Virus record (IMG/VR): IMGVR_UViG_3300033149_001257
Span: 46,458-110,457 of that record
Direction: 5' to 3' (one strand)
Length of the DNA: 64,000 bases
DNA from: a virus
The notes beneath the pieces were generated by a model. It saw only the letters and a list, made by a program, of their open reading frames with translations. It was not told the DNA's origin and made no database searches. The translations under genes were made by a program, and so were the position numbers. Shown here in pieces: positions 16,501 to 36,410 of this stretch; the stretch's first letter is position 1; each line of letters begins with the position of its first letter.

Positions 16501-17314
16501 TGGTGGTTAAGTTACCAGCCACGGTATATGGGATATTTCCATAATGGTCCTCTTTTGTCATTATTTCCTGTATCACATCCTCAGCATAATTAATAGTAGA
16601 TGTGGGATAATACCAATATGGTTCTACAACTAAATCAAAATCTTCCCGTACATTTATGGGCGCATTTAATATTATCTGACCATATTCATAATCAATCGTA
16701 ATATCCTGTATTTTCTCGCCAGCCACAGCACTTCCCCTGAAAATTACTTTTATATTCAACGGCGGTTTCTGCGCTATATTTGTGTGTGGTAAATTAAATA
16801 TTACTGCCAATTTATGGTCAGCATTTTCTGTATCATCTGACATGTAATGCGGCGTAATGTACTCAACCCCAGTAAGCGCGGTATTCGTTGTAGCATATGT
16901 TACCTCGGTTTTGGGTGATTCATATTTCTTGTCAATATCAACCCACTGCAACTTAATCATGGCATCTGATACGTTCAATACAAGCGTTGCCGCACCCTGA
17001 TTAATCACCGGATTTATTTCCTGTATCGTTCCATAGAACTTATTAAATAATTCGGGGGTCCCATAAACGTCTATCCCCTCAAATATCTCAACCAATTCCC
17101 CTTTGGATATAGGATTAGTTCCACCTGCCGAATATTTACCATCGGTGTTTTTTATTATTACCCTTAATGTCGCGGTACCATACTTATCATCAAAAGAGTA
17201 ATCCCAATCGATAGCATCGGTATTTGTAGCGCTGGCTATATCGCAACGGAACTCTCTTGGAGCCTCGCCGCGGGTTAATATAGCTTGCGCATCTGATGAT
17301 AATTGTTTAGGCAT
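13505..17314 (-). CDS. Large tail tip / baseplate hub protein with inserted discoidin-like domains
   Basis: Position after Dit; INFDLG..RYISKV and IIDLGSLRDI...YSIDG..ARYVKI carbohydrate-binding-like motifs. Confidence 0.7.
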   Translation of the reverse strand: MPKQLSSDAQAILTRGEAPREFRCDIASATNTDAIDWDYSFDDKYGTATLRVIIKNTDGKYSAGGTNPISKGELVEIFEGIDVYGTPELFNKFYGTIQEINPVINQGAATLVLNVSDAMIKLQWVDIDKKYESPKTEVTYATTNTALTGVEYITPHYMSDDTENADHKLAVIFNLPHTNIAQKPPLNIKVIFRGSAVAGEKIQDITIDYEYGQIILNAPINVREDFDLVVEPYWYYPTSTINYAEDVIQEIMTKEDHYGNIPYTVAGNLTTTKNTEDGVIIDTMVPNFNPETIDVKVHLKGSVTDAIDTITTKEDTADFDDTGYIKIDNEFIEYTGKTATTLTGCTRGELSSIAAAHNDKATVYQAYPVGQVWYLTYNNVSTDLVHGNFTIPGILAAQFNRFDKRYGKIILTTPPTGGTGATVTCDVDYTFCTIQATGIQIPVIEFSASKINNRFDAINEIRSLLAPNYIFRTAGSQKVWGSYLTQKVNADYTVPGQISLDYISDGEIYTRVKMYGQNENPTNYMQAVDEDGNRVVSFVDIGTYSATAENQPLQWTGDDITYANYKLYLADANGVYFSPAILSYPTIPNVRFNGVPISDNDVQFQSQVISPTGNGALTLFAPGVTSVDDFSNSDPSEIPSYLSQSHYEVRFGYKISREYPIIIYTTDGERLFTIAAGNANVDYSNGIWYAPSSTNYTKLNQTSYADFYKSISADDVLIDCANATVRIEKDSTHFPSDPDAAFTTPNIAEDTTITIGAPGGRSSGITGHMIDGNTSTYFTHIGVYASERLRVKDVLYSKNINFDLGGTRYISKVELDVGAIMNDDIRLYGGDYAVMYQDVDDTWNYMGSWWTGTHWVASHIEFPAGETDLYTTTWYPNESGAPKYIKKIRILSRIKAINRHPVGLSVYWYTGNAYYKEVRIFENTRNGLVSMDLSYASNNIIKPSTSAPLMIDGLSNTQLQVKFKNKTLSGTQFLIIDLGSLRDIRAIDLLQGFYYPYTNDIKNKLDIENRYSLEYSIDGTSYSSISSDARDFIMKGGEKVSFEEDILGEFFQARYVKIILEELGAIEHAGETFYAVCLAELAIYGNTVLETDATLIPTTQVSVGVTAGDSTINVDDTSAFSDTGTIYIDGAEAFVYTSKTPTTFVSTTDTADNNHAIDVRVSQELETASSLFDDAGLLPIYGDKVYKDRDVHIELSTQPIIDRRGKLMLYEFQKNKSKVRITSMLAPHIIMGMTLRVIDTVNNINQNYFLEKMSAKKSQPTFMLARYPG

Positions 17315-17316
17315 TG

Positions 17317-17712
17317 TTAAATATCCTTTAGTACCTTCAGACTCATTTTTATCTGGTACTTCTGTGTTGAACCAGATAATTTATCTAACTTATTGAGGGA
17401 CCGTATTTCACCCTGGATTATCTCTCCGTTTGTCTTGGTTATTTCAAGCCTGGTGTTATTGTCGGCATATGTTTCCAATCTACTCCATAGGGTAAGAGTA
17501 GAATCTTTTGTGAGAAATACAAAATTTGTAATCTCGTGGATTTTCTTCTCCGGGGGCGAATCCTGTCCTTCCGATCCATCGTACAGCACCACATCTTTCG
17601 TCAATGAAACAATGTTTTCCTCTATGGGAACCACTCCGGGAGCCGGTATTGTGTGCTCGTTTACCCACACTCCACTTTCGTATTTTCTCACTGCCCACCT
17701 TATATCAGCCAT
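17317..17712 (-). CDS. Distal tail protein (Dit)-like
   Basis: Size and position immediately after the tape measure gene. Confidence 0.5.
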   Translation of the reverse strand: MADIRWAVRKYESGVWVNEHTIPAPGVVPIEENIVSLTKDVVLYDGSEGQDSPPEKKIHEITNFVFLTKDSTLTLWSRLETYADNNTRLEITKTNGEIIQGEIRSLNKLDKLSGSTQKYQIKMSLKVLKDI

Positions 17713-17721
17713 TTATATCTC

Positions 17722-20700
17722 CTATATCGGTTGAATACCTCTTAATGAATTCTCTGCAAAATAGTACGATTCTGGCATGGCATATGGATCCCCACTCTTT
17801 GCCATGGCGCTCGTATCCCTACTTATACTTTCAAGTAACTTATTGGTATAATCAATCTTCGGGGCTATTTCATGCCACCCCTTGGTTATCTCATCCTGTT
17901 TATTTTCTTTTTCGGGTGTCATTGCTATCCCGGCTATCATACCCAATACTCCGCCTATTGCTCCACCCGCAGGACCAAATACTCCACCCATCATAGAACC
18001 CACCCCGAAACCGGATGCTGCCTCTCTTGAAATCAATCCACCGGCTATTACTCCACCTACCCGGAAAGCATTGAGCATTTTATCCGCAGCTGATATTCCA
18101 CCAACCTCCATACTGGTCGTCATGGCATTCCCATCGGTTATTGACGATGATATACCAGCAGATGTCGCTATTCCGGCAGCTGAAATAGCCGTCATGCCAG
18201 GAGCTACCTTGGGAATAGATGTTTTTTTACCCATACCACCTGTCCTGCCAACCGTGCTAGCCCCCATTGAAGAAAATATCCCATAGTTGGCTTCCATCAT
18301 ATCAAGGAACCTATTTGTCATTCTCTTTAATACCACATCCCCCATGTTATTCATTAATCCCCTGATGTTATCCAGGGCATCTTCCCACGATTCCGTATGG
18401 TGAAGTATGGTCATCATGTAATCAGCCGCTATGCTCTTATACTGCTTACCAAGTTCGGCCGCCTGTTCCATCTGTTGTAATTGAACACCGTTTATAAGTC
18501 CATGTAATTTAAGTATGGTTTCAAGGTCACTTGTGACTTCAAGATACTTGTTTTCGCGATCATCCAACCCATCATTAAGGTCTACGGAAAAGTCTTTTTC
18601 AAATCCGAGCTTGGCAAGCATCTCGTCTTGACTTTTTAATGCTTTTTCTGATAAATTGCCACGATTGTCCTCAATGTTTTCAAGTATGGTCTGCGCTGCT
18701 ATTTGATTAGCAAGCCACGTGTCTGCCATTGATAATTTCGCTTTTTCAAGTTCAAAATCCTGTTGCTTGTCCCTGAGTTTTCTGCGTAAATTCTCGGTGA
18801 TCTCTGTTTCTATTGTTTCTTCCTCGTCTTTATCGTCAACTGTTTTTTTACCCACCCCTGCATTTTTCTTATTTATTTCCAACTGCTTTTCTTTTTCGGT
18901 GGTTATTTCTTTTTCTCCATTTAGATGTGCAAGCATATAATCATACGATTCTTGAAAATCTGCCCCCTCTTCTCTCCTTTTTTTCCAAGCATACCGCGTA
19001 GATAAGGTTTCCTTCATTGCGGTGGACATCACATCCCCTATGGCACCCCCCATAGATACTAAGACTTTTGCAGGCAATCCCATGGCCTTACTAAGCAATG
19101 AATACCTGTTCTGTGATTCTATTAGAGAATCTATAAGTTCTTTCATTGGTCCTTTTGTGTCTTCTAATGATTCTATGAAGTCTGTCTGTATGGCATTCCC
19201 GAGAATTTTAAATGATGCCGCCAATGTGTTCTCTACTTTATCGGCCGTATTCTCTGCAAAATCCTTAAATGTTTCATCGCTTGTTTTTACCGTGGCTTCC
19301 CATTTTTTGAAATCGTTAAGTATTGCCCCAACCGCTCTACCACCCCTTAATCCAAATATGTCCATAAGCCTACGCAAATCGTCTACGGAAAGAGCCGCCC
19401 CCTCAAATCTCCAGCTCAACTGTTCCATCATGTCATTAAGGTCCAACGGAGCTGCAGGGTCAAATATTAACCCAAACTCGGTTTTTAACTTACCAGATTT
19501 TTTGGCTATCATCAAAAATGTTGACATCAGCGACGTACCTGCTCGAGTGTTCCCGCACCATACCGGCTTGCCGTTTCTTCTGACGTAAAGCAATTCGTTT
19601 GGCACGGAAACGCAATGTTGTCTACCATTATAATCTATTTCTTTATGTTGATGGGATAATAACATTGGTTCGTTTTTGAATGTATTTATTCCTATGTTAT
19701 ACATATCTTTATTATCATTATTGTGTTTTAAAATGTATTTTTTGCAATCTCCACTCAACCCAATTTTTAATAATAATTCTATAAAATCATCTTTAAGTTT
19801 TTTTGAACTTGTGTGATATCTGAATCCACACTCAATCCTTTTGTCTTTACTGCCATCCCCCATCATTAATGAATTATATATAATTTTTAATTGACGTGAC
19901 GATAGTTGTAATATTTCTCTGGGTATAAATTTATCTCTTGCATGTCCAAATTGTTTCAAGTAAGACCACAATTGCTTAGAAGTTATGACTATCTTTTTAT
20001 GTTTTGGATATGCTTGTACATTGAATGGTAGTTTTGACATAATGGTTGTCATTTTATTAAATGTTTTACCATACTTTTGTGTAACTACAACATCATAATT
20101 ACCATTATATCCTTTGGTTGCGTGTCCTTCTGCAATCCATATGCCTAAAAATGCTAACCAATGATCCATCTTGATTTTTATATTATTTACTGTTCGTGTT
20201 TTATTTTCTACGGATGGTAAATGAAAATATTTAGTTTCCCTACCGTTCCATTTTGAATTTTTCTTAAGTATTCTATTTTTTTGATACATATTTTCAGCAA
20301 TTTCTATTTGATAATCTTTTTTTATTCTCTTGTCGGATTTAACATACATTCTATGGTTAGGGGTAACCAATAAATTGACTTTCTTATTAGAAAATAATAT
20401 CATTTTCCCTTTGTAGGGTGCATCAACATATTCATAGGGTTTCTGGTATTCAAGTTCTTTTGTTTCTGGATTTAGAGTGGCTACCTTTTCAGTCTTATTT
20501 AGGTCCTTGAAATATTTCCATCCCTGGTTTGTTAGTATTTCTGTTTCATCATCATAGCATCCCTTAAGCAATCCAGAATTTAGGAATCCTATGGTTCCTA
20601 TGAGTGTTTTAATGTCAACATTCATTATTGCACCAGCGGAACCAACTAACCTCATGGCTGATTCTATTTCGGAGAGCTCCACCTGTTGATTACTATACGT

Positions 20701-25416: not shown

Positions 25417-25855
25417 CGATTATCTCCTCAACTCTATCGGCCATAGTTAAGTACTGGTCAACCGAACCGTCAGATGTTATGGGAACATTTCCACCGGCGG
25501 CAAGTTTCTGCAGAGCATCCTCTATGGCTGTAAGTAAATCTTCCTTAGTGGTATCTCCGCTCCGGTCAATACTTAGCACCACCGTTCTGTAGCTAAATGT
25601 CGGCTCAGGAGCCAATATCATCTTGGCTGCTTTTAATGATAATTCTTTCGTCTTATCATTATCCGCCGTAATGTCCGGCGTTATCTCGGTCACACCGGAC
25701 ACTTTACTGTATCCTGAAACACTATCAAAGAGCAATACTTGCGTTATCGAGGCATCCAATATGTTGTTAGAATAATCATATACACCGTCCGTGCCCCAAT
25801 CTCCTAACCATGTGCGTATGTAGTCATACACTGTGCTGTAAGCAATATCCGCCAT
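25403..25855 (-). CDS. Head-tail adaptor-like protein
   Basis: IR..LGD......Y....L motif typical of gp6/gp15-like connectors. Confidence 0.55.
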   Translation of the reverse strand: MADIAYSTVYDYIRTWLGDWGTDGVYDYSNNILDASITQVLLFDSVSGYSKVSGVTEITPDITADNDKTKELSLKAAKMILAPEPTFSYRTVVLSIDRSGDTTKEDLLTAIEDALQKLAAGGNVPITSDGSVDQYLTMADRVEEIIDANA

Positions 25856-25867
25856 GGCTCTATCTCC

Positions 25868-26113
25868 TTACATTATTTTAATGCTACCGGTTTCAATGGT
25901 GGCTTTCTTGAAAATCTTTATCGCTCCTTTTGAAACCAGGTGGTCTACTTCTTTTTTGTACTTACTGGCAACCTCTACCACACCGTCCTCTATTGAGATA
26001 ATCTTGCTGCCTATTGAAACGATGTGGCCATCATCTGCCTTCGCCTTTTTTTTAACCTGAATGAAAAATGTCTCATCCACGTTTGTAGCGTTCTTCTCGG
26101 TTTCCGGTGCCAT
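25868..26113 (-). CDS. Hypothetical protein after major capsid
   Basis: AAGGAGG RBS. Confidence 0.55.
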   Translation of the reverse strand: MAPETEKNATNVDETFFIQVKKKAKADDGHIVSIGSKIISIEDGVVEVASKYKKEVDHLVSKGAIKIFKKATIETGSIKIM

Positions 26114-26162
26114 TTGCTTATCCTCCTTTTATTTTACCAACATCAACATCTACGAGTTAGTA

Positions 26163-26240
26163 TTGGCACTCTCCATGTGGGGATTCTCAGGACTAAGCCT
26201 GAAGGCTCTGCCCGAGCCCTGTGTGCTTATTGCCACATTA
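26163..26240 (-). ncRNA. Stand-alone TnpB omegaRNA scaffold copy 3 (putative guide from 26162 downward: UACUAACUCGUAGAUGUUGA)
   Basis: Homologous to the tnpB 3' end/right end; 21-nt identity with copy 2; ends GAGAGTGCCAA; begins at the capsid stop codon. Confidence 0.75.
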
Positions 26241-27305
26241 CGAATTAGTGATAACCCGTATTGTGTTTTTCCTATAAGGGGCCGGTATCAGAAGATGTAA
26301 ACATTTCGTTATCTGCACGGCTTCCTTGTGGTCAGAACCATCAAATACCTTCATCATTATCTCGTTGAAGTGCATTGTTTTATCCTGACTCGGTTTCTTC
26401 GAATATTTACCAACCGGCTGATCTGAGAAACAATACATCCTGTTTACTTCCAGGGTATTGTCAACTATCCAGGTCACGTTGTATCCAAAGAGGTTGTTTA
26501 CAACACCATTCTGCATAATAAGCTGCTGCGTTGCTAAAGGAACCTCGCTGTTGTATCCACCCGGTGAACCGGCGGCATTATATACAGGCACCCAATCCCA
26601 TATCTCAGGAAGTGTCGTAGGTGACAGATATATTTTGTTGATCTTTATACCAAGCCTCAATGAAAGCGCAAACAGAGACTTCATGGTATTTATGGTTATC
26701 CCACCCTGCGCAGAAGCGTCAATCGAGTTGGTTGTCGGGAAAGAAACCACGTCGGAATCCGTATTGAATGTTCCTGTCGGGAACGTACCATATATGGACT
26801 TAATGAGTGTCCATATGTCCTGGTTTATCTTACTGGCAACATTCTTCGATGCCCTCTTGTTGACCCTATCGGAAACCTTGAGCCGACCAGTTACGGCACT
26901 CGCTGTAGGATAATCAATGAGGTCGGATGATACATAATATGGCTTATATGCCGTCACGCCATCTTCGTTAGTAAACGAATCTTTCGGCGCGCCACCGAGC
27001 TGAGATATTTCCTTAACCTCGTATTTCTGATTCTTCTCGGTATAGACTTCCGGCCACTGGTCATCCTTCAAAGTCTCCGTCTCAAATAACTGTGATGCCA
27101 GAATATCAGCATCGATGTCAACATTTATTCTCGTCTGCCTACCAGCAGCAAACTCTATGGCCGCTGCCGGACTTGAGGCTGATGCCATGAGCATCTTTTC
27201 CCTCTCACTGTCGGGCTTCCTTGCGGCATCCAGCGCCTTATCTTCGGCTTCGATTCTCGCCCTGTTGGCGGGTAACATTAAATCCAGTTTCTCTCTCGCA
27301 ATCAT
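26238..27305 (-). CDS. Major capsid protein (HK97 fold likely)
   Basis: 355 aa; follows scaffold and decoration genes; strong AAGGAGG RBS. Confidence 0.75.
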   Translation of the reverse strand: MIAREKLDLMLPANRARIEAEDKALDAARKPDSEREKMLMASASSPAAAIEFAAGRQTRINVDIDADILASQLFETETLKDDQWPEVYTEKNQKYEVKEISQLGGAPKDSFTNEDGVTAYKPYYVSSDLIDYPTASAVTGRLKVSDRVNKRASKNVASKINQDIWTLIKSIYGTFPTGTFNTDSDVVSFPTTNSIDASAQGGITINTMKSLFALSLRLGIKINKIYLSPTTLPEIWDWVPVYNAAGSPGGYNSEVPLATQQLIMQNGVVNNLFGYNVTWIVDNTLEVNRMYCFSDQPVGKYSKKPSQDKTMHFNEIMMKVFDGSDHKEAVQITKCLHLLIPAPYRKNTIRVITNS

Positions 27306-27380
27306 TTTACATTCCTCCTTCTTTCAAGATTTTTTTCTTTCTTTTTTTACGCAATTACTGTATATCTATTTCAACTTCGT

Positions 27381-27842
27381 TTACGAATACACTTCTATAT
27401 GATACTCTCCTGACGTACCATCCCACAATCCTACAAGCCTACCCTTGATGTCATATGTGCCCTGGGACACACGCCATAATCCATTATATACTTCAAGGTC
27501 AGCATCGTGCGCTGTGCTATCAGAAATCGCGCCTACTGCACCATACGCAGCAACCAGGCTGGTTACTATGTATCCACCACCACTGGCTACGGTTACGGGG
27601 CTACCTATCACAACGTCCGTATTGGGAACATTGTTCAGCATCTCAATATGGGAAATCCCTGTAGCTGTTACGTTCTGAATCAGGGGCCCAATAAACTTAC
27701 TCGTTGCAAGTTCAAGCGTGCCAGGCGCACTCGCGCTGACCTGTGTGCCTGAAGCAACATCAACGAAATATCCCCTTGTCATTGCTACGCTAGTAAGAAA
27801 CCATCCCGTCTTTTCTCTGAAACCTTTCACGATTTTGAACAT
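27381..27842 (-). CDS. Capsid decoration / cement protein
   Basis: Beta-tulip-like G/V/T-rich 153 aa protein directly upstream of the MCP. Confidence 0.6.
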   Translation of the reverse strand: MFKIVKGFREKTGWFLTSVAMTRGYFVDVASGTQVSASAPGTLELATSKFIGPLIQNVTATGISHIEMLNNVPNTDVVIGSPVTVASGGGYIVTSLVAAYGAVGAISDSTAHDADLEVYNGLWRVSQGTYDIKGRLVGLWDGTSGEYHIEVYS

Positions 27843-27904
27843 TTTGAAATCCTCCTTTTAGAGATTTTTATTTTTACTTAATGTCCGTTCTTGTTCTTAA
27901 CTAC

Positions 27905-29974
27905 TTAAAACGCACCTTCTACATTAGAAACAATGCCTGTTGAAGCAACTGCCTGGACTGAGGGTTTGAGTGTTTCTTTGCCCTTAGTATCGGTCGTGCT
28001 TGCTGTTGCTTTGGTGGCCGTGGCTTTCAGATCCTCTTTCCATGCCACAAACTCTTTTTCGCCAACTTCGTCAAAACCAAACCTGCCCATCTGCTCTTTC
28101 TTATACTCAGAAAGCTCAATACCGGAATCCTTTATATCTTTATCACGAGCTGCTACTTTCGTGGCTATCTCAGCCTGTTCAGTCCTGTCAGTTTCAACCG
28201 CTGCCTTAATTCCCACCTTGACGGCTTCGGCAATCTCGGTCTTGACTGTTTCGGCATCTTTGTAATCTTTAAACTTATCAGTCATTTCAGTTTCTTTCTC
28301 AGAAACCGCGCTTCCAGCAACTTCCTGCATTGCCGATACTATCGCAGTGGCTGCCAGCGTTACCTGGTCCCCTGTCAAATCAAACGTCTTAAACAAACTT
28401 GCTACACTTTCCGGCATCTTCAGTGTCGTTAAGTCCATGTCATTTCCTCCTTTTACTAAATTTTTTATTTCATTTATGTGCGAAACCATTTGCCCCATCG
28501 TCATGCTACCCGTGTCTATGCTCATTTCGTTAAGCCTTATATCTTTCATGCTTTTCTTTGCCGATACTTCCAATGTCCTCGATGCTGTACTCCTGAGCTC
28601 TTTCTTGCTGATTGATTTAGTCTTTGGCTCTATGTGGTCAGCCATGATTAAAGCGCTCCTTAAATGAGCCAAATCAATATGCCCTGCCCCATCTTTATAG
28701 GGAAGGTGCCTGGAATCCTTATCCTTGGATGCTCCACTTATATAGTCAGGCTCTATCGCTGCAAACGAGCTATCCGGTAGAGCGTCAATAAACGTCTTTG
28801 TCCATTTTTCAACAGTGTCTGTTTTTACAAACTCACTCGCTAATGAAAAATATCTCGGTGATTCAAACCCACCATCCTTTTCCTCTATTACTGAATATGA
28901 CGAATATACCCTTATCCCATCATCGTCATTACTGTCCATGTATGCACAAAAATCAAAAGTGTCAAACTTTACTTCCTTATCATTTATTTCTATTCTCGTA
29001 CCACCGGCAGTTTTATCAGTCTCTATCAGTATTCTTGTTTTCTTCATAGTGTCTCCTCCTGTAGATTTTTGTCCAGGGCCCGGTCTGTCGGCCCTTCTCA
29101 TCTGTCCCCCACAACTGCTGCATGTCTGGTCTTTGCAGTGACTCGTAGATGTCGCCTTTTTCCCACATTCAATACATTCACATTCGTATTTGGTAGCTCC
29201 TGATTCTACTTTATCTTCAACCTTCTTGCCATCCTTGTTCGTAAGAGAACCGTCGCTGGCTACGGCGAGATTTAAGGGCTCAAAACCATTTGCGTTGCGA
29301 TCAGCTGGTGAGAGCGTCAATGCCGCCCCAACAAAGACTACGTTGCCATTCTCGCCACCAAGTGCAAATTCCATTGGTTTATCTTTGTATGGTAGGCACC
29401 GGTCCTCAGAAAGACATTCCTTCATGTCGTCGGTGGCATCTTCATAGTTGATAAAATTGCCACCGAGGAAGAAAGCCGAGTCAGAATAAGAAAAAAGGCA
29501 CTCCATCGATGATTTATACTCGGCCAGCCCTGCATCGTACAACTCAAGAATGTCCCTCACCTTCTTTATTCTCTTGTATAGTACGCCATACATGGTTACG
29601 GGGACCGCCTCTGCCGGAACAGCCACATCTCCCGCATCTCCCATGCTAACATCAATTATATGCCCAAGTATGTCATTGTCGTCTTTTTTGGGATTGTTGG
29701 CATTATCCTCAATCCTGTGCTCAAGATTTACCATGTTATGCGGCACCGTATTAATTGAGTTGGACAACACCTTATATGAAAAACATCTGTTTTTTGAATT
29801 TGAAATAGGAAGAGAGTTGCATAAGATGAGCTTGAAAAACTGTAAAGATGAATTCGGCGTGAGCTTAACTCCCGATGCCAACGAAATCGGTTCTTTTATA
29901 AATGATACTTTGGCATCTCCAAGCGCAAATCTTTTTTTGTTTTCCAATTTTTTTTCTCCATAAAAAAAAGACAT
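27905..29974 (-). CDS. Prohead protease / scaffold protein with zinc-ribbon insertion
   Basis: NSKNRCF, VNLEH, ILGHI, SSMEC and VFVGAAL..SPAD motifs; CECIECG..C....CSSCGG insert; coiled-coil C-terminal scaffold. Start at ATG 29974 with AAGGAG 7 nt upstream. Confidence 0.8.
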   Translation of the reverse strand: MSFFYGEKKLENKKRFALGDAKVSFIKEPISLASGVKLTPNSSLQFFKLILCNSLPISNSKNRCFSYKVLSNSINTVPHNMVNLEHRIEDNANNPKKDDNDILGHIIDVSMGDAGDVAVPAEAVPVTMYGVLYKRIKKVRDILELYDAGLAEYKSSMECLFSYSDSAFFLGGNFINYEDATDDMKECLSEDRCLPYKDKPMEFALGGENGNVVFVGAALTLSPADRNANGFEPLNLAVASDGSLTNKDGKKVEDKVESGATKYECECIECGKKATSTSHCKDQTCSSCGGQMRRADRPGPGQKSTGGDTMKKTRILIETDKTAGGTRIEINDKEVKFDTFDFCAYMDSNDDDGIRVYSSYSVIEEKDGGFESPRYFSLASEFVKTDTVEKWTKTFIDALPDSSFAAIEPDYISGASKDKDSRHLPYKDGAGHIDLAHLRSALIMADHIEPKTKSISKKELRSTASRTLEVSAKKSMKDIRLNEMSIDTGSMTMGQMVSHINEIKNLVKGGNDMDLTTLKMPESVASLFKTFDLTGDQVTLAATAIVSAMQEVAGSAVSEKETEMTDKFKDYKDAETVKTEIAEAVKVGIKAAVETDRTEQAEIATKVAARDKDIKDSGIELSEYKKEQMGRFGFDEVGEKEFVAWKEDLKATATKATASTTDTKGKETLKPSVQAVASTGIVSNVEGAF

Positions 29975-30067
29975 TGACACTCTCCTTTAAGGAGATTCTC
30001 AGGTTGAGGATACGGAATCCTGAAGGCTCTGCCCGAGCCTTAAAATGTTTATCGCCACATTATGGTC
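29974..30067 (-). ncRNA. Stand-alone TnpB omegaRNA scaffold copy 2, forming the 5' UTR of the protease gene
   Basis: Encodes a relic DHNVAINILRLGQSLQ (TnpB C-terminus); has GGCTC/GAGCC, TCAGG/CCTGA and TCTCCT/AGGAGA stems; ends GAGAGTGTCAA. Confidence 0.8.
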
Positions 30068-30096
30068 ACAACCTAATTCAAAACCATAAAGTCAAT

Positions 30097-30147
30097 AAAA
30101 AAATGGCAATACACATTATCAGTTAATTTTGATAATACATATTGCCA
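30097..30147 (-). terminator. Intrinsic terminator
   Basis: 18-bp stem (three G.U pairs that work only on the minus strand) followed by a U7 run. Confidence 0.8.
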
Positions 30148-30211
30148 CTTCAAGTACATTGATGAGGGGGTTGCCCTCGGGCTTTTTCTGGTACTTCGCT
30201 GTCTGAGGGTA

Positions 30212-30240
30212 ATTATATCAGATATTTATTGTTTTGTCAA
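30212..30240 (-). promoter_or_regulatory. Consensus sigma70 promoter
   Basis: TTGACA-17-TATAAT. Confidence 0.85.
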
Positions 30241-30390
30241 GCATTTTGGAGAATTAGGTGGAAGTTATTTTTCGGATATTTTTTGAATTTCGCTTATTCT
30301 CGTCGCTGTTTGCTGTTTATGTTTTTAGTATTTTCAATTATGATTTCACTTAATCATTGAATCTGGCTTGTTTGTTTTATTGAAAATCCG

Positions 30391-30441
30391 CCCATTCATC
30401 CCCGCGGTTAAAATCGGAGGTTTTCTGGGATGTTTCTATAA
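30391..30441 (-). mobile_element. IS200/IS605 left-end hairpin with TTAT target motif
   Basis: TTAT|AGAAACATCCCAGAAAACCTCCGATTTTAACCGCGGGGATGAATGGG resembles the right-end palindrome of the adjacent element. Confidence 0.65.
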
Positions 30442-30446
30442 TAGTT

Positions 30447-30695
30447 CTATTGTTTTTTCCTGAAACTTGTGGTAAGGTTTTTAGAAACATCCCGGACATC
30501 ATCATGGTTGGGGAAATTTTTATTTTTTATTTTTTTTAAAAACTCTGACGCTTTCATTACTTCCCGGGGTCCATTAAAATATCTTATGAGTAACGGAAAA
30601 TCTCCGCTTTCTTTCAATATCTTTTTAATACCCGTGACCCCGGTAAAAAAATCGCTGTCTAATGAATTTGATTTCTTTTTTCTATTATCTTTCAT
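30447..30695 (-). CDS. Hypothetical basic protein
   Basis: GAGGAG RBS; 82 aa. Confidence 0.5.
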   Translation of the reverse strand: MKDNRKKKSNSLDSDFFTGVTGIKKILKESGDFPLLIRYFNGPREVMKASEFLKKIKNKNFPNHDDVRDVSKNLTTSFRKKQ

Positions 30696-30949
30696 TTTTG
30701 GCTCCTCTCTGATTTTAATTACTCCGATTTCTAAATTTGGCCCTTAACTGCCCTGTGTTGAGCTTTGGGGGTTCCTGGCGTGTTCTCCAGTCCTCATTCT
30801 CCTTTCATTGAAGATTTGCCCGCGTTCTGCCCTGTCCTACCTGTTCTGTGTCGTTCCCTACGGGCGGTCTTGCCTTTGCCCTATGTATAATGAGTAGAAA
30901 CCCAGAACAGAGAGAGCAAGCAAGAACACTTAAACAGCTAAAACAATAT

Positions 30950-31051
30950 TTGACACTCTCCGTGGCTAAAGCCGGGAGATTCTCGGGACTTCTATGAAGC
31001 CTTCCGAATGGCCTGCCCAGCCATTAAAATATTCATTGCTGCGTTGTGGTC
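30950..31051 (-). ncRNA. TnpB omegaRNA (reRNA) scaffold / IS right end; putative guide from 30949 downward: AUAUUGUUUUAGCUGUUUAA
   Basis: Overlaps the tnpB 3' end; subterminal hairpin CTCCCGGCTTTAGCCACGGAG followed by GTGTCAA. Confidence 0.85.
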
Positions 31052-32083
31052 ACGACCTATCTCCAAACCACACCTACACTTATGCACACGAACTGACAAT
31101 TCTTTTTTGACTATCTTTCCACACTTTGAGCACATCTGGGATGTGTTTTTGGCAGGAACCTCAATGACTTCTTTTCCAACTTCTTCCGCTTTGAAACGAA
31201 GTATATTGAAGAAATTAAACCAAGCAACATCCCTCATAGACCGATTGAGCTTTCTGAATGTTTTCCAACTGTGAAGTTTTTCTATACAGATTATGTCGTT
31301 CTCTTTAACCAACTTATTAGCAACTTTAAAATGAAAATCTCGTCTTTGGTTGGCAATCTTTTCGTGAACCTTAGCGACAAGCAACTTTGCCTTTTTTCTT
31401 CTACTGGAACCTCTCTTTTTACGAGAAAGCGCTTGTTGGCGCTCAGTCAGAACACTATCGGCCTCATTAAGAAATCGGGGATTATCTATGGAATTACCAT
31501 TAGAGTCGGTCAGAAAAGATTCACAGCCCACGTCAATACCGATAGTCTTGCCAGTTTTGGACAACGGTTTACCAGGAACATCTTTACAGGAAAAACAAGC
31601 AAACCATTTCCCGGCTGGGGTTTTGCGGATAGTTACGGTTTTAATTGCGCCCTCGGTAGGCCGAGAAAGTTTCATCTTGAACTTACCAATTTTATTAATA
31701 GTAAAGCACCTTCCGTTAAGTTTCCATCCACATTGTTTAAGTGTGAAAGAATCGTATCTTCCCATCCCCTTGAATCTCGGGAACCCAGCCTTTTCCCCGG
31801 ACTTAACTCTACGGAAAAAAGATTGGTATGATTTATTGAGACGCTCAGTCACGTCCTGGAGTGATTCACTTGGCACTTTTTTAAATTCGGGAAAACCTTT
31901 TTTCAGGTCGGAAAGCTGATTCGCTTGGTCATACCCGGAAATAAATTTCCCGTGACATTTCCAAGCATTTATTCTCTGCTCAAGGCAGAGATTATAAAGT
32001 ATTCTGCAAAGATTAAGAACTTCTTCGGTTTTGGTGAGAGTTTCTCGATTGGCATATATTCTATATTTAAAAGTCTTTTTCAT
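30992..32083 (-). CDS. tnpB: RNA-guided endonuclease TnpB (IS200/IS605)
   Basis: KTFKYRIY HTH, GFPRFK, RuvC-I GIDVG, RuvC-II ICIEKL, TSQMCSKCG zinc finger, RuvC-III RDHNAAMNI; all three catalytic residues present. Confidence 0.95.
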   Translation of the reverse strand: MKKTFKYRIYANRETLTKTEEVLNLCRILYNLCLEQRINAWKCHGKFISGYDQANQLSDLKKGFPEFKKVPSESLQDVTERLNKSYQSFFRRVKSGEKAGFPRFKGMGRYDSFTLKQCGWKLNGRCFTINKIGKFKMKLSRPTEGAIKTVTIRKTPAGKWFACFSCKDVPGKPLSKTGKTIGIDVGCESFLTDSNGNSIDNPRFLNEADSVLTERQQALSRKKRGSSRRKKAKLLVAKVHEKIANQRRDFHFKVANKLVKENDIICIEKLHSWKTFRKLNRSMRDVAWFNFFNILRFKAEEVGKEVIEVPAKNTSQMCSKCGKIVKKELSVRVHKCRCGLEIGRDHNAAMNILMAGQAIRKAS

Positions 32084-32469
32084 TTTTTTGATTGCTCCTC
32101 TATATATTTTTTCACAACCTTACTTGATATATTTCCGGCAGTACATACAAAATATGAATGAGTCCATAGAGAGGGAATTTTTAGCAGGTGTGGAAATTCT
32201 CTACGAAGATAATTTGATGTTCTTCCCTTGAATGCTTTTATTATTTTATGGATAGATATTGTGGGGTATGCTGAAACAAAAACATGGAGATGATCTGGTT
32301 GAATCTCAAAAGCAATTATGTCTATACTTTTTTCTTTAGCAACTTCTCGCATGATTACGCGAAGTCTATTTTTTACTTTTCCTATCAGAACTTTTTTTCT
32401 TCTCTTCGGGCACCATATCAGGTGGTAGTTTATGAGATATATTTGATTGCGTGAATGTTTATATTTCAT
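32080..32469 (-). CDS. tnpA: Y1 HUH transposase TnpA (IS200/IS605)
   Basis: YHLIWCPKRRK, DHLH, KGRTS, LW..SYFV.T.G and YIEEQ motifs. Confidence 0.95.
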   Translation of the reverse strand: MKYKHSRNQIYLINYHLIWCPKRRKKVLIGKVKNRLRVIMREVAKEKSIDIIAFEIQPDHLHVFVSAYPTISIHKIIKAFKGRTSNYLRREFPHLLKIPSLWTHSYFVCTAGNISSKVVKKYIEEQSKK

Positions 32470-32478
32470 CTTGTTGAT

Positions 32479-32507
32479 AGTATAGCATATATCAACAATC
32501 TTGTCAA
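32479..32507 (-). promoter_or_regulatory. sigma70 promoter for tnpA-tnpB (near-leaderless), overlapped by an inverted repeat
   Basis: TTGACA-17-TATACT, ATG 9 nt after the -10; TTGTTGATA...TATCAACAA palindrome. Confidence 0.8.
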
Positions 32508-32515
32508 GGAAAAAA

Positions 32516-34315
32516 TTACTTTTTCTTTTTCGTCCACTTCTTTGTCTTGGGGTCCTGTTTGTAGGTTTCCTTTACTACCGACCACGCCTTCCTGGCAGCA
32601 ACAGCATCTTTGTCGCCTGCCTTCTTTCTTTCCTTATAGACCTTTTCCCATATAGAAACTCCCCCTTTGGGTAGCGATCCCAGGACTGCAACTTCGAGTG
32701 CAAACTCCTCTATGTCATCTGCATATGGGTCCAAATAAAGATGTACGGCATCCTTTGCTGTTGAGGGCCTTGGTTTATTGTCTAGGTCGCCATCTTTTGT
32801 TCTTGGCCTGCCATTCTCATCCATGTTATCGTTTTTCTTATCACCTGCAAGCATCGTGAGTGCCAAGAACGACTGCCCCTGGCTTTTCTCGAAGATGGGT
32901 GTGTAATCCATTGGGTTTTCCTGTTCTTTCTTTTTTCTGGCTAAAATATTAGATGAGTGCCTACCCGTCTCTTCCAGTACCGTGCCGGCATCCATTATGC
33001 CTTGTGAATATAAAACCTTGAGCTCTTCTATCAATACTCTTGGTTCTTTAAGCGCCTGCTCATCAAATCGTACCTTGGGTATGCTTGTTTCTTTTATGAA
33101 GGATTTCCCTGCCCTTCCGTCGGCAGCTATCACATAAACTTCTTCCCACATCCTTGATATTATCCTACGGAGTTTCTTTATGTATGCGATTAAATCCTTC
33201 ATTTTTATATACATCATGCTGTAATTTCCACCTGTTCCAGAAATAAGACTAGACCCTAAATGCGACCATGCCGTTATCCTTTCTAACAGCGCAGAATATT
33301 TCTCCGGTGCCCATACTTTGGGGTCCGGGAAAACATATTTCATTTCCCAGTAATGTTGGGTAAATATCCTTAAAGCCTTTGATACGTTACGGAAGTTGCT
33401 CTTCATTGCCTTTAAATCAGCATCGTTTACCATGTAGGCCTTACTGCCTGCTTTCTGGCCAGATTTAATGGACTCTCCTCCTTTTACATGCAAAACCACG
33501 TTTTTAGTGTAAAAGGCCACCTGTGAATCACCGTCTATGAGCATTTCCAGGATAGATATATCGTAGAATATAGACTGCATCCGCGGGGGGATAAGCCTGT
33601 CGTTTAGCCCCTTTTCGTTCTTCAGTATCACATATTCCCCATCAGCCTCGCTCATTAGCGCATACTGGCGTGTTTCGTCAGCCCCGTTGCCATTGGCTGC
33701 CTCGTAAAATTTCTTTGCTGTAGCATCCTCGCCTATAAGCGATTCTATTGCTGTTCTTGCGTTTTCATCGGAATTAGAAACAGTGAAAACCTTTGCCATC
33801 TCGGCATCTGGTTTCACATACACCAACTTCTTGCCCCACAATGGAACCACCTTACACAACTCGGGGTCAAGCATTACGATGTAATCTATTTTCTTTGTTT
33901 GCGTATCCTTTTTTACCAGGATAAGGGCATTTGACTTCGTTACCATGTTTTCCCATGTAGTGAGCATCCTACTGTCAATGTCGTGTTCTTTACCGAAATC
34001 ATCGAAAAACTTACCGGCAACCTTTTCGTCAGGAGTTGAGTTATGGTATCCTGCCATTCCAAAGTTTACCGTGGTATCAACTATCGCCTGGATATAAGCA
34101 TTTTCATCCCGATACTTTTGAGCCCTACTGAATTTATCTGTAAGGTCCACAGGGATAGCGTTCTGCCTCATATTCTTTAATACCCCAGTATTGGCATAGT
34201 TATCAAGTGACATTGCCACCAATTCCCCATTGCCGTCCATGGTCCATCCTACCATTGGGGCCATCTCCTTTTTACCTGTAGATTTATTTGTTTTACCTGG
34301 TTTTCTTTTGGCCAT
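32516..34315 (-). CDS. Portal protein with C-terminal ChaB-like domain
   Basis: Position after TerL, size and GRP tail motif; C-terminal LPKGGVSIWEKVY...AARKAWSVVKETYKQ...W. Confidence 0.75.
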   Translation of the reverse strand: MAKRKPGKTNKSTGKKEMAPMVGWTMDGNGELVAMSLDNYANTGVLKNMRQNAIPVDLTDKFSRAQKYRDENAYIQAIVDTTVNFGMAGYHNSTPDEKVAGKFFDDFGKEHDIDSRMLTTWENMVTKSNALILVKKDTQTKKIDYIVMLDPELCKVVPLWGKKLVYVKPDAEMAKVFTVSNSDENARTAIESLIGEDATAKKFYEAANGNGADETRQYALMSEADGEYVILKNEKGLNDRLIPPRMQSIFYDISILEMLIDGDSQVAFYTKNVVLHVKGGESIKSGQKAGSKAYMVNDADLKAMKSNFRNVSKALRIFTQHYWEMKYVFPDPKVWAPEKYSALLERITAWSHLGSSLISGTGGNYSMMYIKMKDLIAYIKKLRRIISRMWEEVYVIAADGRAGKSFIKETSIPKVRFDEQALKEPRVLIEELKVLYSQGIMDAGTVLEETGRHSSNILARKKKEQENPMDYTPIFEKSQGQSFLALTMLAGDKKNDNMDENGRPRTKDGDLDNKPRPSTAKDAVHLYLDPYADDIEEFALEVAVLGSLPKGGVSIWEKVYKERKKAGDKDAVAARKAWSVVKETYKQDPKTKKWTKKKK

Positions 34316-34369: not shown

Positions 34370-34612
34370 TTAATCTTTGCCCATCTTGAGGATTTGTATT
34401 ATTATATCACTCAACCCTGCGCCTATCCACGCAAGAACCTCGTCAGTTTCGTCGGCAACGTAGTATCTTATGTCACCCACTATTTTTTCAGAAACTTCTT
34501 GCCCTTTTTCTTCCGCCTCTTTTTGAAAATCATTAATCAGTTTTTTAATCTTGTCAGATTCTTCTTTTGTGAACATTAAATCCTCCTTAAAATATAGTAT
34601 CTGCGATTCCAC
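34370..34612 (-). CDS. Hypothetical protein
   Basis: AGGAGG RBS before an internal ATG (MFTKEE). Confidence 0.5.
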   Translation of the reverse strand: MESQILYFKEDLMFTKEESDKIKKLINDFQKEAEEKGQEVSEKIVGDIRYYVADETDEVLAWIGAGLSDIIIQILKMGKD

Positions 34613-36410
34613 CGCTCATTACATCATCACCATCATCAGCGCCACCGTCGTCTGTTACCATGCAGGTCTTTTTAATTTCGCTGTCTACTTCGTCTTTAGC
34701 CAACAAGGTTTCATATACATCTATGGCAAATAAAGCATAAACAAAGCTCATGAAAGCATCGGTCTTGCCGTGTTGTTTAATATACTTGAATACCCCATTT
34801 TTAGTCTTCATTGGTAATCCACTTGCGTCCTTGGCTCTGCCTATATTGCCGGACTCCGCCTTTATGTCTTTAATCACGGACATTACCGCGGACTTGCCTG
34901 TTATGTCATATGCTCGTAAAGGAACAGACTGTCCATTCACTATTGTGAATTCTTCGTATTCTGATGGCAGCTTTATTCTCTCTTTTTCCATTCTTGCCTT
35001 GGCTATTGTGTGGATTTTGTCTACCAGGACATCATCCCCGAGCATTTTACCATAGGCCCTTTTTACTGTTTCGTTCCGGCTAACCCACAATAAGCAGTGG
35101 TGCCCCTCTTTATCCTCGTCATCCACTCTCAGCATGGGCGTTACTTCCTTTTCTATACCATTTACTGTTATTTTCTCAAGTTCAAGGCGCTCTGCTACCC
35201 AGTGTCCACCGCCCCCTGGGTCCATGGCGAGATATATGAAATTAAATGCCTTATCTGCCGTATGTATAATATCTGCCATTTCGTCCTCAGATATACCCCT
35301 CACCTTTATGGCATGTACCACGCAATCCTCTTTTGAGTTGGTTTTGTGGTATTTTATGACTGTTAATGTGAAGAAATCGCCTTTATTGTCATATCCTTTT
35401 GCTACATCGCATCCCCCGAAATACCTGTCTTTTTTGCTGCCTTTCAGCTCTATCTTTAAATATGGTACAAATAGTGGGAAAAACAGGGTTGATGGATATA
35501 CCTCGCTACCGCCCTCTACCCATTTGCCAAGCCATTCCATATCAAAAGAATCTTTGTCCATTATCTCTTTATCCATGGCTAATTGCGTTTGGTCTATTGT
35601 CCATAGGAATTCTTTTGAAACATGAGTATAATTTCTATTAAAATGGACTACAGACAACTCTCCCTTTTTTTCTTCCCTGTCAAACCATTCCACGCGCTTA
35701 TATGCGGCATTTAACTTGTAATTTGCCGAGGATTCATATATAATCTGGTTATCATAGACCATGTCCCCTGTTTTCTCAAACATAGGGCTCTTAACCTCTG
35801 TTACTATAGGGCCTATTACGTCCGTGAGTATCTTCTGGTCCGGGAAGAATGTCCATTCGTTCACTATGGCACCATTCCATCTCTGACTACGGAGCCGGAG
35901 GCCCTTCCCCCGGAGAATATATGGGGGTATCACGACGAATTCAGAGTTATTTGTGTACTTAATTGAGTGAATATCCGGACCATGGAACGGTTTAGCCTCA
36001 CTATTTGACGTTTTTCCCCTTATTTCTGCCTGATATACGGGGCATTTCTCAAACCACCTATCAACATATTTTACGAATATATCCTTAGCGCCACCGAATG
36101 TGTGTGAAATAAAGCCCCATTTCTGATTATCTATCAATATACACTTCATGTGTGCAATTAAGTAGTAAATAAAGGTTTTTGCGTTATCTCTACCGGAATC
36201 GTCCAGGACAAAGTGGGTTTTCCATGCGGCCTCAAATCGTTCTTTCTGATGCGGAGCGAATCCCTTCCCATACAGGGGGTCAAATATCGTCTGTGCGGCA
36301 TATATTGGGTCCTGTAGCATTTGCAGCTTAACCTCTGCCGTTAATATTGGCTTTGTGTTATTTCCACGAATCATATTTATTGTCCTTTTTGTATTTATTT
36401 GATATGTCAT
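34587..36410 (-). CDS. terL: Terminase large subunit
   Basis: PHQ (Q motif), SGRDNAKT Walker A, LRSQRW...IVNEW Walker B, YESSA, F.MEW.G.W, GCDVA nuclease, MDPGGGG, KTDAF; true start may be MIRGNN (36374). Confidence 0.9.
   Translation of the reverse strand: MTYQINTKRTINMIRGNNTKPILTAEVKLQMLQDPIYAAQTIFDPLYGKGFAPHQKERFEAAWKTHFVLDDSGRDNAKTFIYYLIAHMKCILIDNQKWGFISHTFGGAKDIFVKYVDRWFEKCPVYQAEIRGKTSNSEAKPFHGPDIHSIKYTNNSEFVVIPPYILRGKGLRLRSQRWNGAIVNEWTFFPDQKILTDVIGPIVTEVKSPMFEKTGDMVYDNQIIYESSANYKLNAAYKRVEWFDREEKKGELSVVHFNRNYTHVSKEFLWTIDQTQLAMDKEIMDKDSFDMEWLGKWVEGGSEVYPSTLFFPLFVPYLKIELKGSKKDRYFGGCDVAKGYDNKGDFFTLTVIKYHKTNSKEDCVVHAIKVRGISEDEMADIIHTADKAFNFIYLAMDPGGGGHWVAERLELEKITVNGIEKEVTPMLRVDDEDKEGHHCLLWVSRNETVKRAYGKMLGDDVLVDKIHTIAKARMEKERIKLPSEYEEFTIVNGQSVPLRAYDITGKSAVMSVIKDIKAESGNIGRAKDASGLPMKTKNGVFKYIKQHGKTDAFMSFVYALFAIDVYETLLAKDEVDSEIKKTCMVTDDGGADDGDDVMSGGIADTIF

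What the first reader, a model, noticed from the sequence alone, without database searches (positions are those of the whole stretch)
26140..32507. Possible phage-domesticated TnpB system: one intact TnpB plus dispersed stand-alone omegaRNA scaffolds bracketing the capsid genes
Seen: besides the native omegaRNA overlapping tnpB (30950-31051), two more scaffold copies lie in the sense strand of the late mRNA. One is at 29974-30067, in front of the protease, and one at 26163-26240, starting at the major capsid stop codon. They share an identical 21-mer and cover about the omegaRNA span, starting at or just after the DHN codons. They keep three stems with compensatory differences from the native copy, and each is followed by a different 3' guide sequence. 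Both have lost the GGCTTTAGCC loop of the subterminal hairpin. Established: TnpB loads an RNA from the IS right end whose guide is the flanking DNA, and TnpA recognises the subterminal hairpin. Inference: these copies are kept as RNAs rather than transposon ends. They may give TnpB extra guides (against host or rival phage DNA) or let it bind or process the head-gene mRNA.
Basis: partly seen in the sequence, partly recalled or inferred. Interest (0 to 1): 0.95.

Follow-up and report, generated by a model that had tools for sequence, protein, structure and literature searches.

The report
Phage IS605 relics: mini-transposon and orphan end
The two extra "guide-RNA scaffolds" around the phage capsid genes are real, but one is the right end of a small gene-less IS605-type transposon and the other a truncated transposon end, so they look like ordinary selfish-DNA remnants, not a proven new phage RNA-guided system.

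Summary
A covariance model built only from TnpB-linked omegaRNA 3' parts in other metagenomes finds exactly four copies in the 110-kb phage record. These are the native one, copy 2 (29974-30086, 93 bits), copy 3 (26163-26240, 42 bits), and a fourth outside the window.

- The genome has a second intact tnpB (TnpB-2, 79% identical to TnpB-1, no tnpA). Its own omegaRNA already has the short terminal hairpin, and copies 2 and 3 belong to that lineage.
- Copy 2 is not stand-alone. A family left end lies 464 nt upstream (30392-30437, the only one in the genome), directly after a TTAT target motif. Together they form a PATE-like non-autonomous IS605 element.
- Both tnpB-bearing elements lack a left-end hairpin.

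Copy 3 is a 5'-truncated, partly decayed right end. The guides are simply the flanking DNA, and I found no second target. I could not reach any related phage, so conservation is untested.

Use of omegaRNAs from gene-less elements by TnpB in trans is already described (Meers 2023). Verdict: new member of a known kind, moderate interest. Domestication is not excluded, but nothing I could test supports it.

The parts
32479..32507 (-). IS-1 promoter (TTGACA-17-TATACT) driving tnpA. It begins 9 nt after the portal stop codon (TAA 32516-32518), which leaves no room for a left-end hairpin.
   Evidence: Promoter scan 11/12. Alignment to family left ends shows that homology starts at the promoter and the hairpin is missing. 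The LE profile finds no hit here.
32080..32469 (-). tnpA, Y1 (IS200-like) transposase, 129 aa, intact ORF
   Evidence: Pfam Y1_Tnp E 1e-39, profile positions 2-121 of 121
30992..32083 (-). tnpB-1, 363 aa, intact
   Evidence: Pfam OrfB_IS605, Cas12f1-like_TNB and HTH_OrfB_IS605. Matches solved ISDra2 TnpB at E 5e-45. The alignment printed for the top hit (9yyg, an AI-designed nuclease, residues 4-369) shows the DxG, IE and RDxNAA motifs conserved.
30950..31068 (-). Native omegaRNA scaffold / right end of IS-1, with the full terminal hairpin and a TCAA end
   Evidence: R1 98.4 bits (this copy was in the training set)
30438..30441 (-). TTAT target-adjacent motif directly 5' of the left end, 6 nt after the stop of the 82-aa ORF (30447-30695)
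   Evidence: Sequence. Family left ends are preceded by TTTAT or TTTAC.
30392..30437 (-). Left end (LE) with subterminal hairpin and GATGAATGG motif. It is the only LE in the 110-kb genome.
   Evidence: nhmmer with a profile of 14 family LEs, E 9.2e-10; next best hit E 0.028. blastn 86% to the LEs of L005 and L107.
29974..30437 (-). PATE-like non-autonomous IS605-family element: LE, about 300 nt of unique interior, the last ~84 nt of a tnpB, and the right end. No protein gene.
   Evidence: Both ends best-match the same IS lineage (L005/L107). The interior has no match in the fetched loci or the genome. No ORF on the - strand.
30212..30240 (-). Consensus sigma-70-type promoter inside the mini-element (TTGACA-17-TATAAT, with TG)
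   Evidence: 12 of 12 matches
30102..30149 (-). Strong intrinsic terminator (20-pair stem with G-U pairs, then a T7 run) between that promoter and copy 2
   Evidence: Terminator scan. Fold -34.2 kcal/mol, z -4.86.
29974..30086 (-). Copy 2: omegaRNA scaffold and right end of the mini-element. GAAT, short hairpin CTCC-TTAA-AGGAG, and TCAA end. It keeps the open frame of a TnpB C-terminus.
   Evidence: R1 93.1 bits, E 3e-22, no non-standard pair. 83% identical to the omegaRNA of tnpB-2 over 113 nt.
29945..29973 (-). 'Guide' of copy 2, which is the 5' UTR of the next gene with its own GGAG (29956-29959) and TTG start (29945-29947)
   Evidence: Homologs P0005 and P0006 start at the residue aligned to this TTG
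27905..29947 (-). It runs on in frame into a 177-aa scaffold-like ORF (ATG 28438).
   Evidence: No Pfam, PHROG or PDB match. Homologs are 501-505 aa.
26238..27305 (-). Major capsid protein gene, 355 aa
   Evidence: ESM Atlas: feature score 0.97 and TM 0.63-0.83 to major-capsid clusters. The C-terminus ...RVITNS matches homolog ...RVITA.
26163..26240 (-). Copy 3: 5'-truncated right end / omegaRNA relic. It starts in the capsid stop codon, has no LE, has a reduced middle stem-loop and one broken pair, and ends in CCAA.
   Evidence: R1 42.5 bits, E 2e-9, three non-standard pairs. Pair counts. No LE hit nearby.
26143..26162 (-). 'Guide' of copy 3, which is intergenic DNA before the next gene (ATG 26113)
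   Evidence: Sequence. No TAM-adjacent second match. Two chance hits in IMG/VR.

Best explanation
The phage has been colonised several times by IS200/IS605 elements of one TnpB clade, and what remains are elements in different states of decay.

- IS-1 (tnpA, tnpB-1, omegaRNA) and IS-2 (tnpB-2, omegaRNA; outside the window) keep intact genes and consensus promoters, but both have lost the left-end hairpin.
- Copy 2 is the right end, and therefore the omegaRNA gene, of a 464-nt gene-less PATE-like element. This element inserted after a TTAT between the 82-aa ORF and the large head gene.
- Copy 3 is the last ~78 nt of another such element, left behind after its 5' part was deleted just downstream of the capsid gene.

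Shown: homology, structure, ends, target motif, and intact tnpA and tnpB genes.

Inferred: if the copies are transcribed, the scaffold of copy 2 (90% identical to TnpB-2's own core) can be loaded by TnpB-2 in trans. It would then do what omegaRNAs of gene-less IS605 elements are thought to do, namely direct cleavage of the empty site (TTAT plus flank) in a genome lacking the insertion, so that recombination copies the element back (homing, or drive). Copy 3 is probably inert.
For: - Four R1 matches in the genome, two of them tnpB-linked.
- A second intact tnpB, 79% identical to the first. Its omegaRNA is the closest relative of copy 2 and shares a 24-mer with copy 3.
- A single significant LE in the genome, 464 nt upstream of copy 2's end, on the same strand and directly after TTAT. 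Both ends best-match the same IS lineage.
- In the family, TTTAT goes with GAAAA and TTTAC with GAAAG in front of the LE hairpin, with exceptions (L106: CTTAT with GAAAC; L048: TTTAC with GAAGG). The phage LE has GAAAA with TTAT. This is the IS608 rule, from established knowledge.
- The right end keeps GAAT, a hairpin and TCAA.
- Copy 3 is shorter, scores lower and has broken pairs.
- About 8 of roughly 55 resolvable metagenome and genome loci with the same 21-mer are also tnpB-less copies. One of them (L066/L098) has an LE about 220 nt upstream.
- In 5 cellular genomes, 2 of 18 R1 hits are solo.
- Meers et al. state that PATEs often encode omegaRNAs that must be used in trans (PMC10055086).
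Against: - The terminal hairpin of copy 2 is cut down to 5 bp and lacks the distal stem that family members with tnpA keep, so TnpA may no longer recognise this end.
- The same shortening occurs in three separate copies (2, 3 and 4) of one phage. This is hard to explain by transposition alone if the hairpin is needed for it.
- Both tnpB-bearing elements are immobilised yet intact, which fits retention for function.
- There is only one copy of the mini-element, and no empty site was seen, so mobility is not shown.
- The genome record is 66% complete.
Confidence: 0.7

Rival explanations
1. Domesticated multi-guide system. The phage keeps immobilised TnpB nucleases and several omegaRNA genes as a weapon, with the extra scaffolds supplying additional guides against host or competing phage DNA.
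For: - Both tnpB genes are intact with consensus promoters although their elements lack an LE.
- Three scaffolds share a shortened TnpA-type hairpin.
- Two of four scaffolds are tnpB-less, against about 11-15% in cellular data.
- All pairs are kept in copy 2.
Against: - Copy 2 has a cognate LE and TAM, so an ordinary insertion explains it.
- The guides are only the local flanks. There is no second TAM-adjacent target in the genome and no non-chance match in IMG/VR.
- No compensatory change is private to copies 2 or 3, and copy 3 is decaying.
- A strong terminator sits just upstream of copy 2.
Confidence: 0.12
2. Cis-regulatory use. The scaffolds act on the late head mRNA, through TnpB binding or processing, masking of the ribosome-binding site of the large head gene, or stabilisation of the capsid message.
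For: Both copies lie in the sense strand in the only two sizeable intergenic gaps of the head module. Copy 2 ends 14 nt before the GGAG of the next gene.
Against: - The gene has its own GGAG and TTG start 27 nt past the element end, at the position where homologs start. The scaffold therefore supplies neither the ribosome-binding site nor the start codon.
- The folds are not unusually stable.
- No T-run follows copy 3.
- IS-2 lies antisense to its neighbours, so orientation follows the element, not the operon.
Confidence: 0.07
3. Portable homology. The two right-end copies are direct repeats flanking the head-protein cassette and serve as recombination points for exchanging that cassette between phages. 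Alternatively, together with the LE they form a 4.3-kb composite element.
For: The order LE (30437), copy 2 and copy 3 on one strand brackets the genes at 26238-29947.
Against: - The repeats share only 21-24 identical bases.
- Copy 3's end is degenerate (CCAA, broken hairpin).
- No related phage could be fetched to show a mosaic joint.
Confidence: 0.04
4. Chance similarity or low-complexity artefact.
For: None beyond the weak thermodynamic z-scores.
Against: R1 E-values of 3e-22 and 2e-9 from a model that did not include these copies. Copy 2 is 83% identical to copy 4 over 113 nt.
Confidence: 0.01

Closest known systems
PATE-like non-autonomous IS200/IS605 elements that carry an omegaRNA (Meers et al. 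2023, PMC10055086; term from Haloquadratum, PMC3119063)
   Same: Left and right ends of an IS605 family with no protein gene between them. The right end encodes an omegaRNA that needs a TnpB made elsewhere. Insertion is directly 3' of the family's TAM.
   Different: It sits in a phage late operon. The interior holds a consensus promoter and a strong terminator of unknown origin. The right-end hairpin is shortened. Only one copy was seen.
IS605-type tnpA-tnpB elements with TnpB/omegaRNA homing (IS608, ISDra2, ISGst)
   Same: Y1 TnpA. TnpB with RuvC motifs and zinc ribbon. The omegaRNA overlaps the tnpB 3' end. TTAY target motif, TCAA element end, and a GAAT guide before the right-end hairpin.
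   Different: In this phage both tnpB-bearing copies lack the left-end hairpin, so TnpA should not be able to excise them.
Phage-encoded TldR (nuclease-dead TnpB-derived repressors; PMC10705468, PMC13418256)
   Same: A TnpB relative immobilised in a phage, with a guide RNA.
   Different: TldR has lost RuvC residues and its guide is retargeted to a host promoter. Here the catalytic motifs are kept and the guides equal the flanking DNA.
TnpB next to CRISPR-like mini-arrays in Thermus Lalka phages (PMC11437467)
   Same: A phage TnpB-like gene with more than one potential guide.
   Different: Those phages have repeat-spacer arrays beside the gene. Here there are dispersed whole scaffolds that are transposon ends.
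TnpB gene drive of IS elements on multicopy plasmids (bioRxiv 10.1101/2025.02.20.638934) and homing endonucleases of T4-like phages
   Same: The likely benefit to the element is cutting the empty allele in a co-resident genome copy, so that repair spreads the insertion.
   Different: Not shown here. No empty allele or rival genome was available.

Membership tests
IS605-family TnpB omegaRNA (3' scaffold / right end) | Sequence and structure match to scaffolds attached to intact tnpB genes | tested here: met
   R1 gives 93.1 bits for copy 2 and 42.5 bits for copy 3. Neither copy was in the model.
IS605-family TnpB omegaRNA (3' scaffold / right end) | Overlaps the 3' end of a tnpB gene in cis | tested here: not met
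   Only 28 codons of a TnpB C-terminus remain before copy 2, and none before copy 3. Intact tnpB genes lie 0.9 kb and 60 kb away.
IS605-family TnpB omegaRNA (3' scaffold / right end) | Made as a discrete RNA and bound by TnpB | not testable with these tools
No RNA data.
PATE-like non-autonomous IS200/IS605 element (copy 2) | Family left end with subterminal hairpin, upstream on the same strand | tested here: met
   nhmmer E 9.2e-10 at 30392-30442, the only hit in 110 kb. 86% identical to the L005/L107 LEs.
PATE-like non-autonomous IS200/IS605 element (copy 2) | Target motif directly 5' of the LE that agrees with the LE's internal guide | tested here: met
   TTAT at 30438-30441 with GAAAA before the hairpin. 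In most family members TTTAT goes with GAAAA and TTTAC with GAAAG; two of the listed LEs do not follow this.
PATE-like non-autonomous IS200/IS605 element (copy 2) | Right end with GAAT, a subterminal hairpin and a TCAA cleavage site | tested here: inconclusive
   GAAT and TCAA are present. The hairpin is reduced to 5 bp and lacks the distal stem seen in 33 family members.
PATE-like non-autonomous IS200/IS605 element (copy 2) | No protein-coding gene between the ends | tested here: met
   No - strand ORF of 50 aa or more in 29974-30437.
PATE-like non-autonomous IS200/IS605 element (copy 2) | Evidence of mobility (several copies, or an empty site) | tested here: not met
   Single copy. The interior has no other match. 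No relative was available.
Domesticated RNA-guided system (TldR- or CRISPR-like) | Guide matches a target other than the element's own flank | tested here: not met
   No TAM-adjacent match with 4 or fewer mismatches for guides 3 and 4, and only 4-mismatch hits for guides 1 and 2. IMG/VR hits are at chance level, and 1 of 97 has TTAT. The host genome is unknown.
Domesticated RNA-guided system (TldR- or CRISPR-like) | Conserved at the same locus in related phages | not testable with these tools
   No relatives in IMG/VR or GenBank phages.

The most novel reading that the evidence does not exclude
The phage has fixed two TnpB nucleases by deleting their left ends and trimmed the TnpA-recognition hairpin from three omegaRNA genes. 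TnpB plus four guides then works as a TnpA-independent drive and exclusion system. In mixed infections it would cut relatives that lack the insertions at sites flanking the head genes, and gene conversion would carry this phage's head cassette into them.
Probability: 0.12. Interest if true: 0.8.

Novelty: new member of a known kind. Interest (0 to 1): 0.4.

Why it matters
What TnpB does for phages is an open question. This record holds, in one genome, every stage of IS605 decay: tnpA with tnpB, tnpB alone, a gene-less element with both ends, and a bare right end. Both nuclease genes are still intact although their elements can no longer be excised. If the gene-less scaffolds are loaded in trans, the phage would be a compact natural test bed for omegaRNA sharing between TnpB paralogs and for RNA-guided drive between co-infecting phages. 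If they are not loaded, this is a clean example of how orphan omegaRNA-like sequences arise and how they can be mistaken for a new system.

Tried and rejected
- Rfam: no family at gathering score in the window. In 25900-32600 there were only sub-threshold hits (RT-17 E 0.21, L10 leader E 0.83).
MCP and head-gene scans of IMG/VR found none. blastn of 25800-30200 against GenBank phages found no match. The 21-mer has no hit in IMG/VR. tblastn of the head proteins against the 109 fetched loci gave nothing. Relatives cannot be drawn for a virus record. The earlier-findings look-up found no look-alikes.
The contigs of P0002/P0006 and P0005 and any read data could therefore not be examined. The cluster look-up gave no accessions.
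- The AlphaFold model of the capsid protein was unusable (pLDDT 34).
- The large head gene has no match in the PDB.
- The weak R1 hit at 51374-51438 lies inside a 256-aa ORF and was rejected as chance.
- Rejected: an LE for IS-1 or IS-2 (no hit, and no room).
- Rejected: homology of copy 3 beyond 26240. Those bases encode the conserved capsid C-terminus.
- Rejected: the shared word CTCGTAGA in guides 3 and 4 as meaningful. About 3 copies are expected by chance in the genome (my estimate; the occurrences were not counted).
- The 254-nt spacer 30696-30949 shows no fold signal (z -0.06).


Full report
**Setting.** The window is bases 46458-110457 of a 110,457-bp IMG/VR virus record rated 66% complete. 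In 22-36 kb all genes run on the - strand. In order they are:
- large terminase (34587-36410; PHROG 2);
- a 599-aa portal-position protein with a C-terminal ChaB domain (32516-34315);
- an IS605-type unit;
- an 82-aa ORF;
- a 691-aa ORF;
- a 153-aa ORF;
- a 355-aa protein that the ESM Atlas places with major capsid proteins (feature score 0.97, TM 0.63-0.83).

Within the IS unit, tnpA (32080-32469) matches Y1_Tnp at E 1e-39. tnpB-1 (30992-32083) matches OrfB_IS605, the TNB domain and the HTH domain. tnpB-1 also matches solved ISDra2 TnpB at E 5e-45, and the alignment printed for the top hit (an AI-designed nuclease covering the same residues) shows the catalytic motifs in place.

**The observation.** The three copies align, and copies 2 and 3 share an exact 21-mer. 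To test them independently, I scanned public metagenome and genome collections for that 21-mer. In most loci with enough upstream sequence it lies at the 3' end of an intact ~360-aa tnpB.

From 33 such tnpB-linked sequences plus the two tnpB-linked phage copies I built covariance model R1. Copies 2 and 3 were left out.
- Unfiltered, R1 finds three matches in the window: native at 98.4 bits, copy 2 at 93.1 bits (E 3e-22, no non-standard pair) and copy 3 at 42.5 bits (E 2e-9, three non-standard pairs). Nothing else scores better than E 0.1.
- The rest of the genome adds one match.
- On the four phage copies, 97.5% of pair cells are standard, five pairs changed on both sides, and slid controls collapse to 26-48% paired.

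Every double change separates the two tnpB-linked copies from the others. None arose in copy 2 or 3, so there is no sign of selection acting after they became orphans. Single-sequence folding energies are unremarkable.

**First thing missed: a second tnpB.** Genome 16671-17771 (- strand, outside the window) encodes an intact 366-aa TnpB-2. It is 79% identical to TnpB-1, has the same motifs and has no tnpA.
- Its omegaRNA (copy 4) is 83% identical to copy 2 over 113 nt, and about 90% by my count of the alignment from the first hairpin to the end. It shares a 24-mer with copy 3.
- Copy 4 itself has a short terminal hairpin and a short middle region. The missing GGCTTTAGCC loop is therefore a trait of this lineage, carried by an omegaRNA still attached to an intact nuclease gene.
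- Copies 2 and 3 share AATGTGGC(A/G)ATAA where copy 4 has AATGCTGCATTAA. They therefore come from a third, closely related parent that is not in the available 110 kb.

**Second thing missed: copy 2 has a left end.**
- Upstream regions of tnpA in family members show a conserved left end. It reads TTTAT or TTTAC, then about 20 nt, a hairpin, GATGAATTGCC and a promoter.
- A profile of 14 such ends hits the phage genome once, at window 30392-30442 on the - strand (E 9.2e-10; next best E 0.028).
- The hit is preceded by TTAT (30438-30441), 6 nt after the stop of the 82-aa ORF.
- In the family the last base of the motif mostly co-varies with the base before the hairpin: TTTAT with GAAAA, TTTAC with GAAAG. 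Two of the listed ends, L106 and L048, do not fit. This is the rule established for IS608, and the phage end obeys it.
- The left end and copy 2 both find their best matches in the same IS lineage (L005/L107). The 300 nt between them match nothing.
- Copy 2 keeps GAAT, a hairpin and TCAA.

Bases 29974-30437 are therefore a 464-nt gene-less IS605-family element of the PATE kind, inserted in the normal way. Meers et al. already note that such elements often encode omegaRNAs that must be used in trans by a TnpB made elsewhere.

**Third thing missed: the two tnpB-bearing units lack left ends.** In IS-1 the portal stop codon is followed after 9 nt by the tnpA promoter (11 of 12), and homology to family members begins at that promoter. 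IS-2 likewise has only a consensus promoter before tnpB-2. The profile finds no left end near either unit. By the IS608 mechanism neither can be excised by TnpA, yet tnpA, tnpB-1 and tnpB-2 are all intact.

**Copy 3.**
- Homology starts at the TAA of the capsid gene. The bases before it encode ...RVITNS, which matches ...RVITA in the 70% identical homolog, so they are native capsid sequence.
- There is no left end.
- The middle stem-loop is reduced to a few bases, one terminal-hairpin pair is C-A, and the end reads CCAA. CCAA also occurs in the tnpB-linked L004 and L014.
- It looks like the stump of an insertion whose 5' part was deleted.

**Comparable stumps elsewhere.** About 8 of roughly 55 resolvable loci with the 21-mer lack a tnpB (L035, L037, L053, L059, L087, L088, L103, and L066/L098, which has an LE about 220 nt upstream). 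In five cellular genomes 16 of 18 R1 hits abut tnpB and 2 do not.

**Guides and regulation.**
- Each guide is simply the DNA after the element.
- None has a second match next to TTAY in the phage genome within 3 mismatches.
- Exact scans of IMG/VR gave 97, 3 and 2 hits, with match lengths and TTAT adjacency (1 of 97) as expected by chance.
- The large head gene does not depend on copy 2 for translation. Homologs P0005 (82%) and P0006 (67%) start at the residue aligned to the TTG at 29945-29947, which has its own GGAG 8 nt upstream.
- A 12-of-12 promoter (30212-30240) and a 20-pair terminator (30102-30149, z -4.9) lie inside the mini-element just upstream of copy 2. Their role is unknown.

**Reading.** The best-supported account is repeated colonisation by one IS605 clade followed by decay. 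Copy 2 is a PATE-like element's omegaRNA and right end, and copy 3 is a relic.

If expressed, copy 2 could be used by TnpB-2 in trans for the known homing function. That step is inferred.

Three features keep a domestication reading alive at about one in eight:
- both nuclease genes are intact but fixed in place;
- three scaffolds share a trimmed TnpA-type hairpin;
- half the scaffolds are orphans.

The test that would settle it is comparison with close relatives of this phage.

Noticed in passing
L113:16646-17830 (genome coordinates, outside the window): Second IS unit: a consensus promoter (TTGACA-17-TATAAT), intact tnpB-2 (366 aa) and its omegaRNA. It has no tnpA and no left end, and it lies antisense to its neighbouring genes.
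   Followed up: yes
window 32470-32518: IS-1 has no left-end hairpin. The portal stop codon is followed after 9 nt by the tnpA promoter, so the element should be non-excisable although tnpA is intact.
   Followed up: yes
window 30090-30240 (- strand): Perfect sigma-70-type promoter, a leader of about 100 nt and a very strong G-U-containing terminator with a T7 run, all inside the mini-element and just before the head genes. The layout recalls a promoter-proximal terminated RNA awaiting antitermination. There is a sub-threshold resemblance to the L10 leader (E 0.83).
   Followed up: partly
window 27905-29980 (- strand): The 691-aa ORF is two units in frame. Homologs end at 501-505 aa, near ...EIKNL. 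Here the frame runs on into a 177-aa ORF with its own GGAGG and ATG (28438). The true start is the TTG at 29947, not the GTG/ATG at the element border. No family, PHROG or PDB match, so 'protease' is unconfirmed.
   Followed up: partly
L037:333-700, L088:106-300, L035:3997-5140: In other metagenome contigs, tnpB-less scaffold copies sit directly in front of another IS605-family gene. In L088 the next tnpB reading frame opens inside the orphan scaffold. In L037 the scaffold starts at the stop codon of the upstream gene.
   Followed up: partly
L005, L016, L025, L030, L040, L044, L045, L050, L054, L075, L107 (left ends): The last base of the target motif mostly co-varies with the base before the left-end hairpin (TTTAT with GAAAA, TTTAC with GAAAG), as in IS608. 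L106 and L048 are exceptions.
   Followed up: partly
IMG/VR scan: The 21-mer of this omegaRNA clade has no exact hit in 2.9 million viral contigs, apart from the window's own record (which may be left out of the scan). It has 89 hits in metagenome contigs and 20 in genomes, several of them Ca. Aerophobetes MAGs. This clade is rare in known viruses.
   Followed up: no
By eye, only short words such as ACTAAGGC and TGCCTGAACCC resemble the scaffold complement. R1 (E up to 10) and blastn-short found nothing there. The stretch lies in the loop of a terminator-like hairpin.
   Followed up: partly
window 32516-34315: The portal-position protein carries a C-terminal ChaB domain (E 1.3e-6).
   Followed up: no
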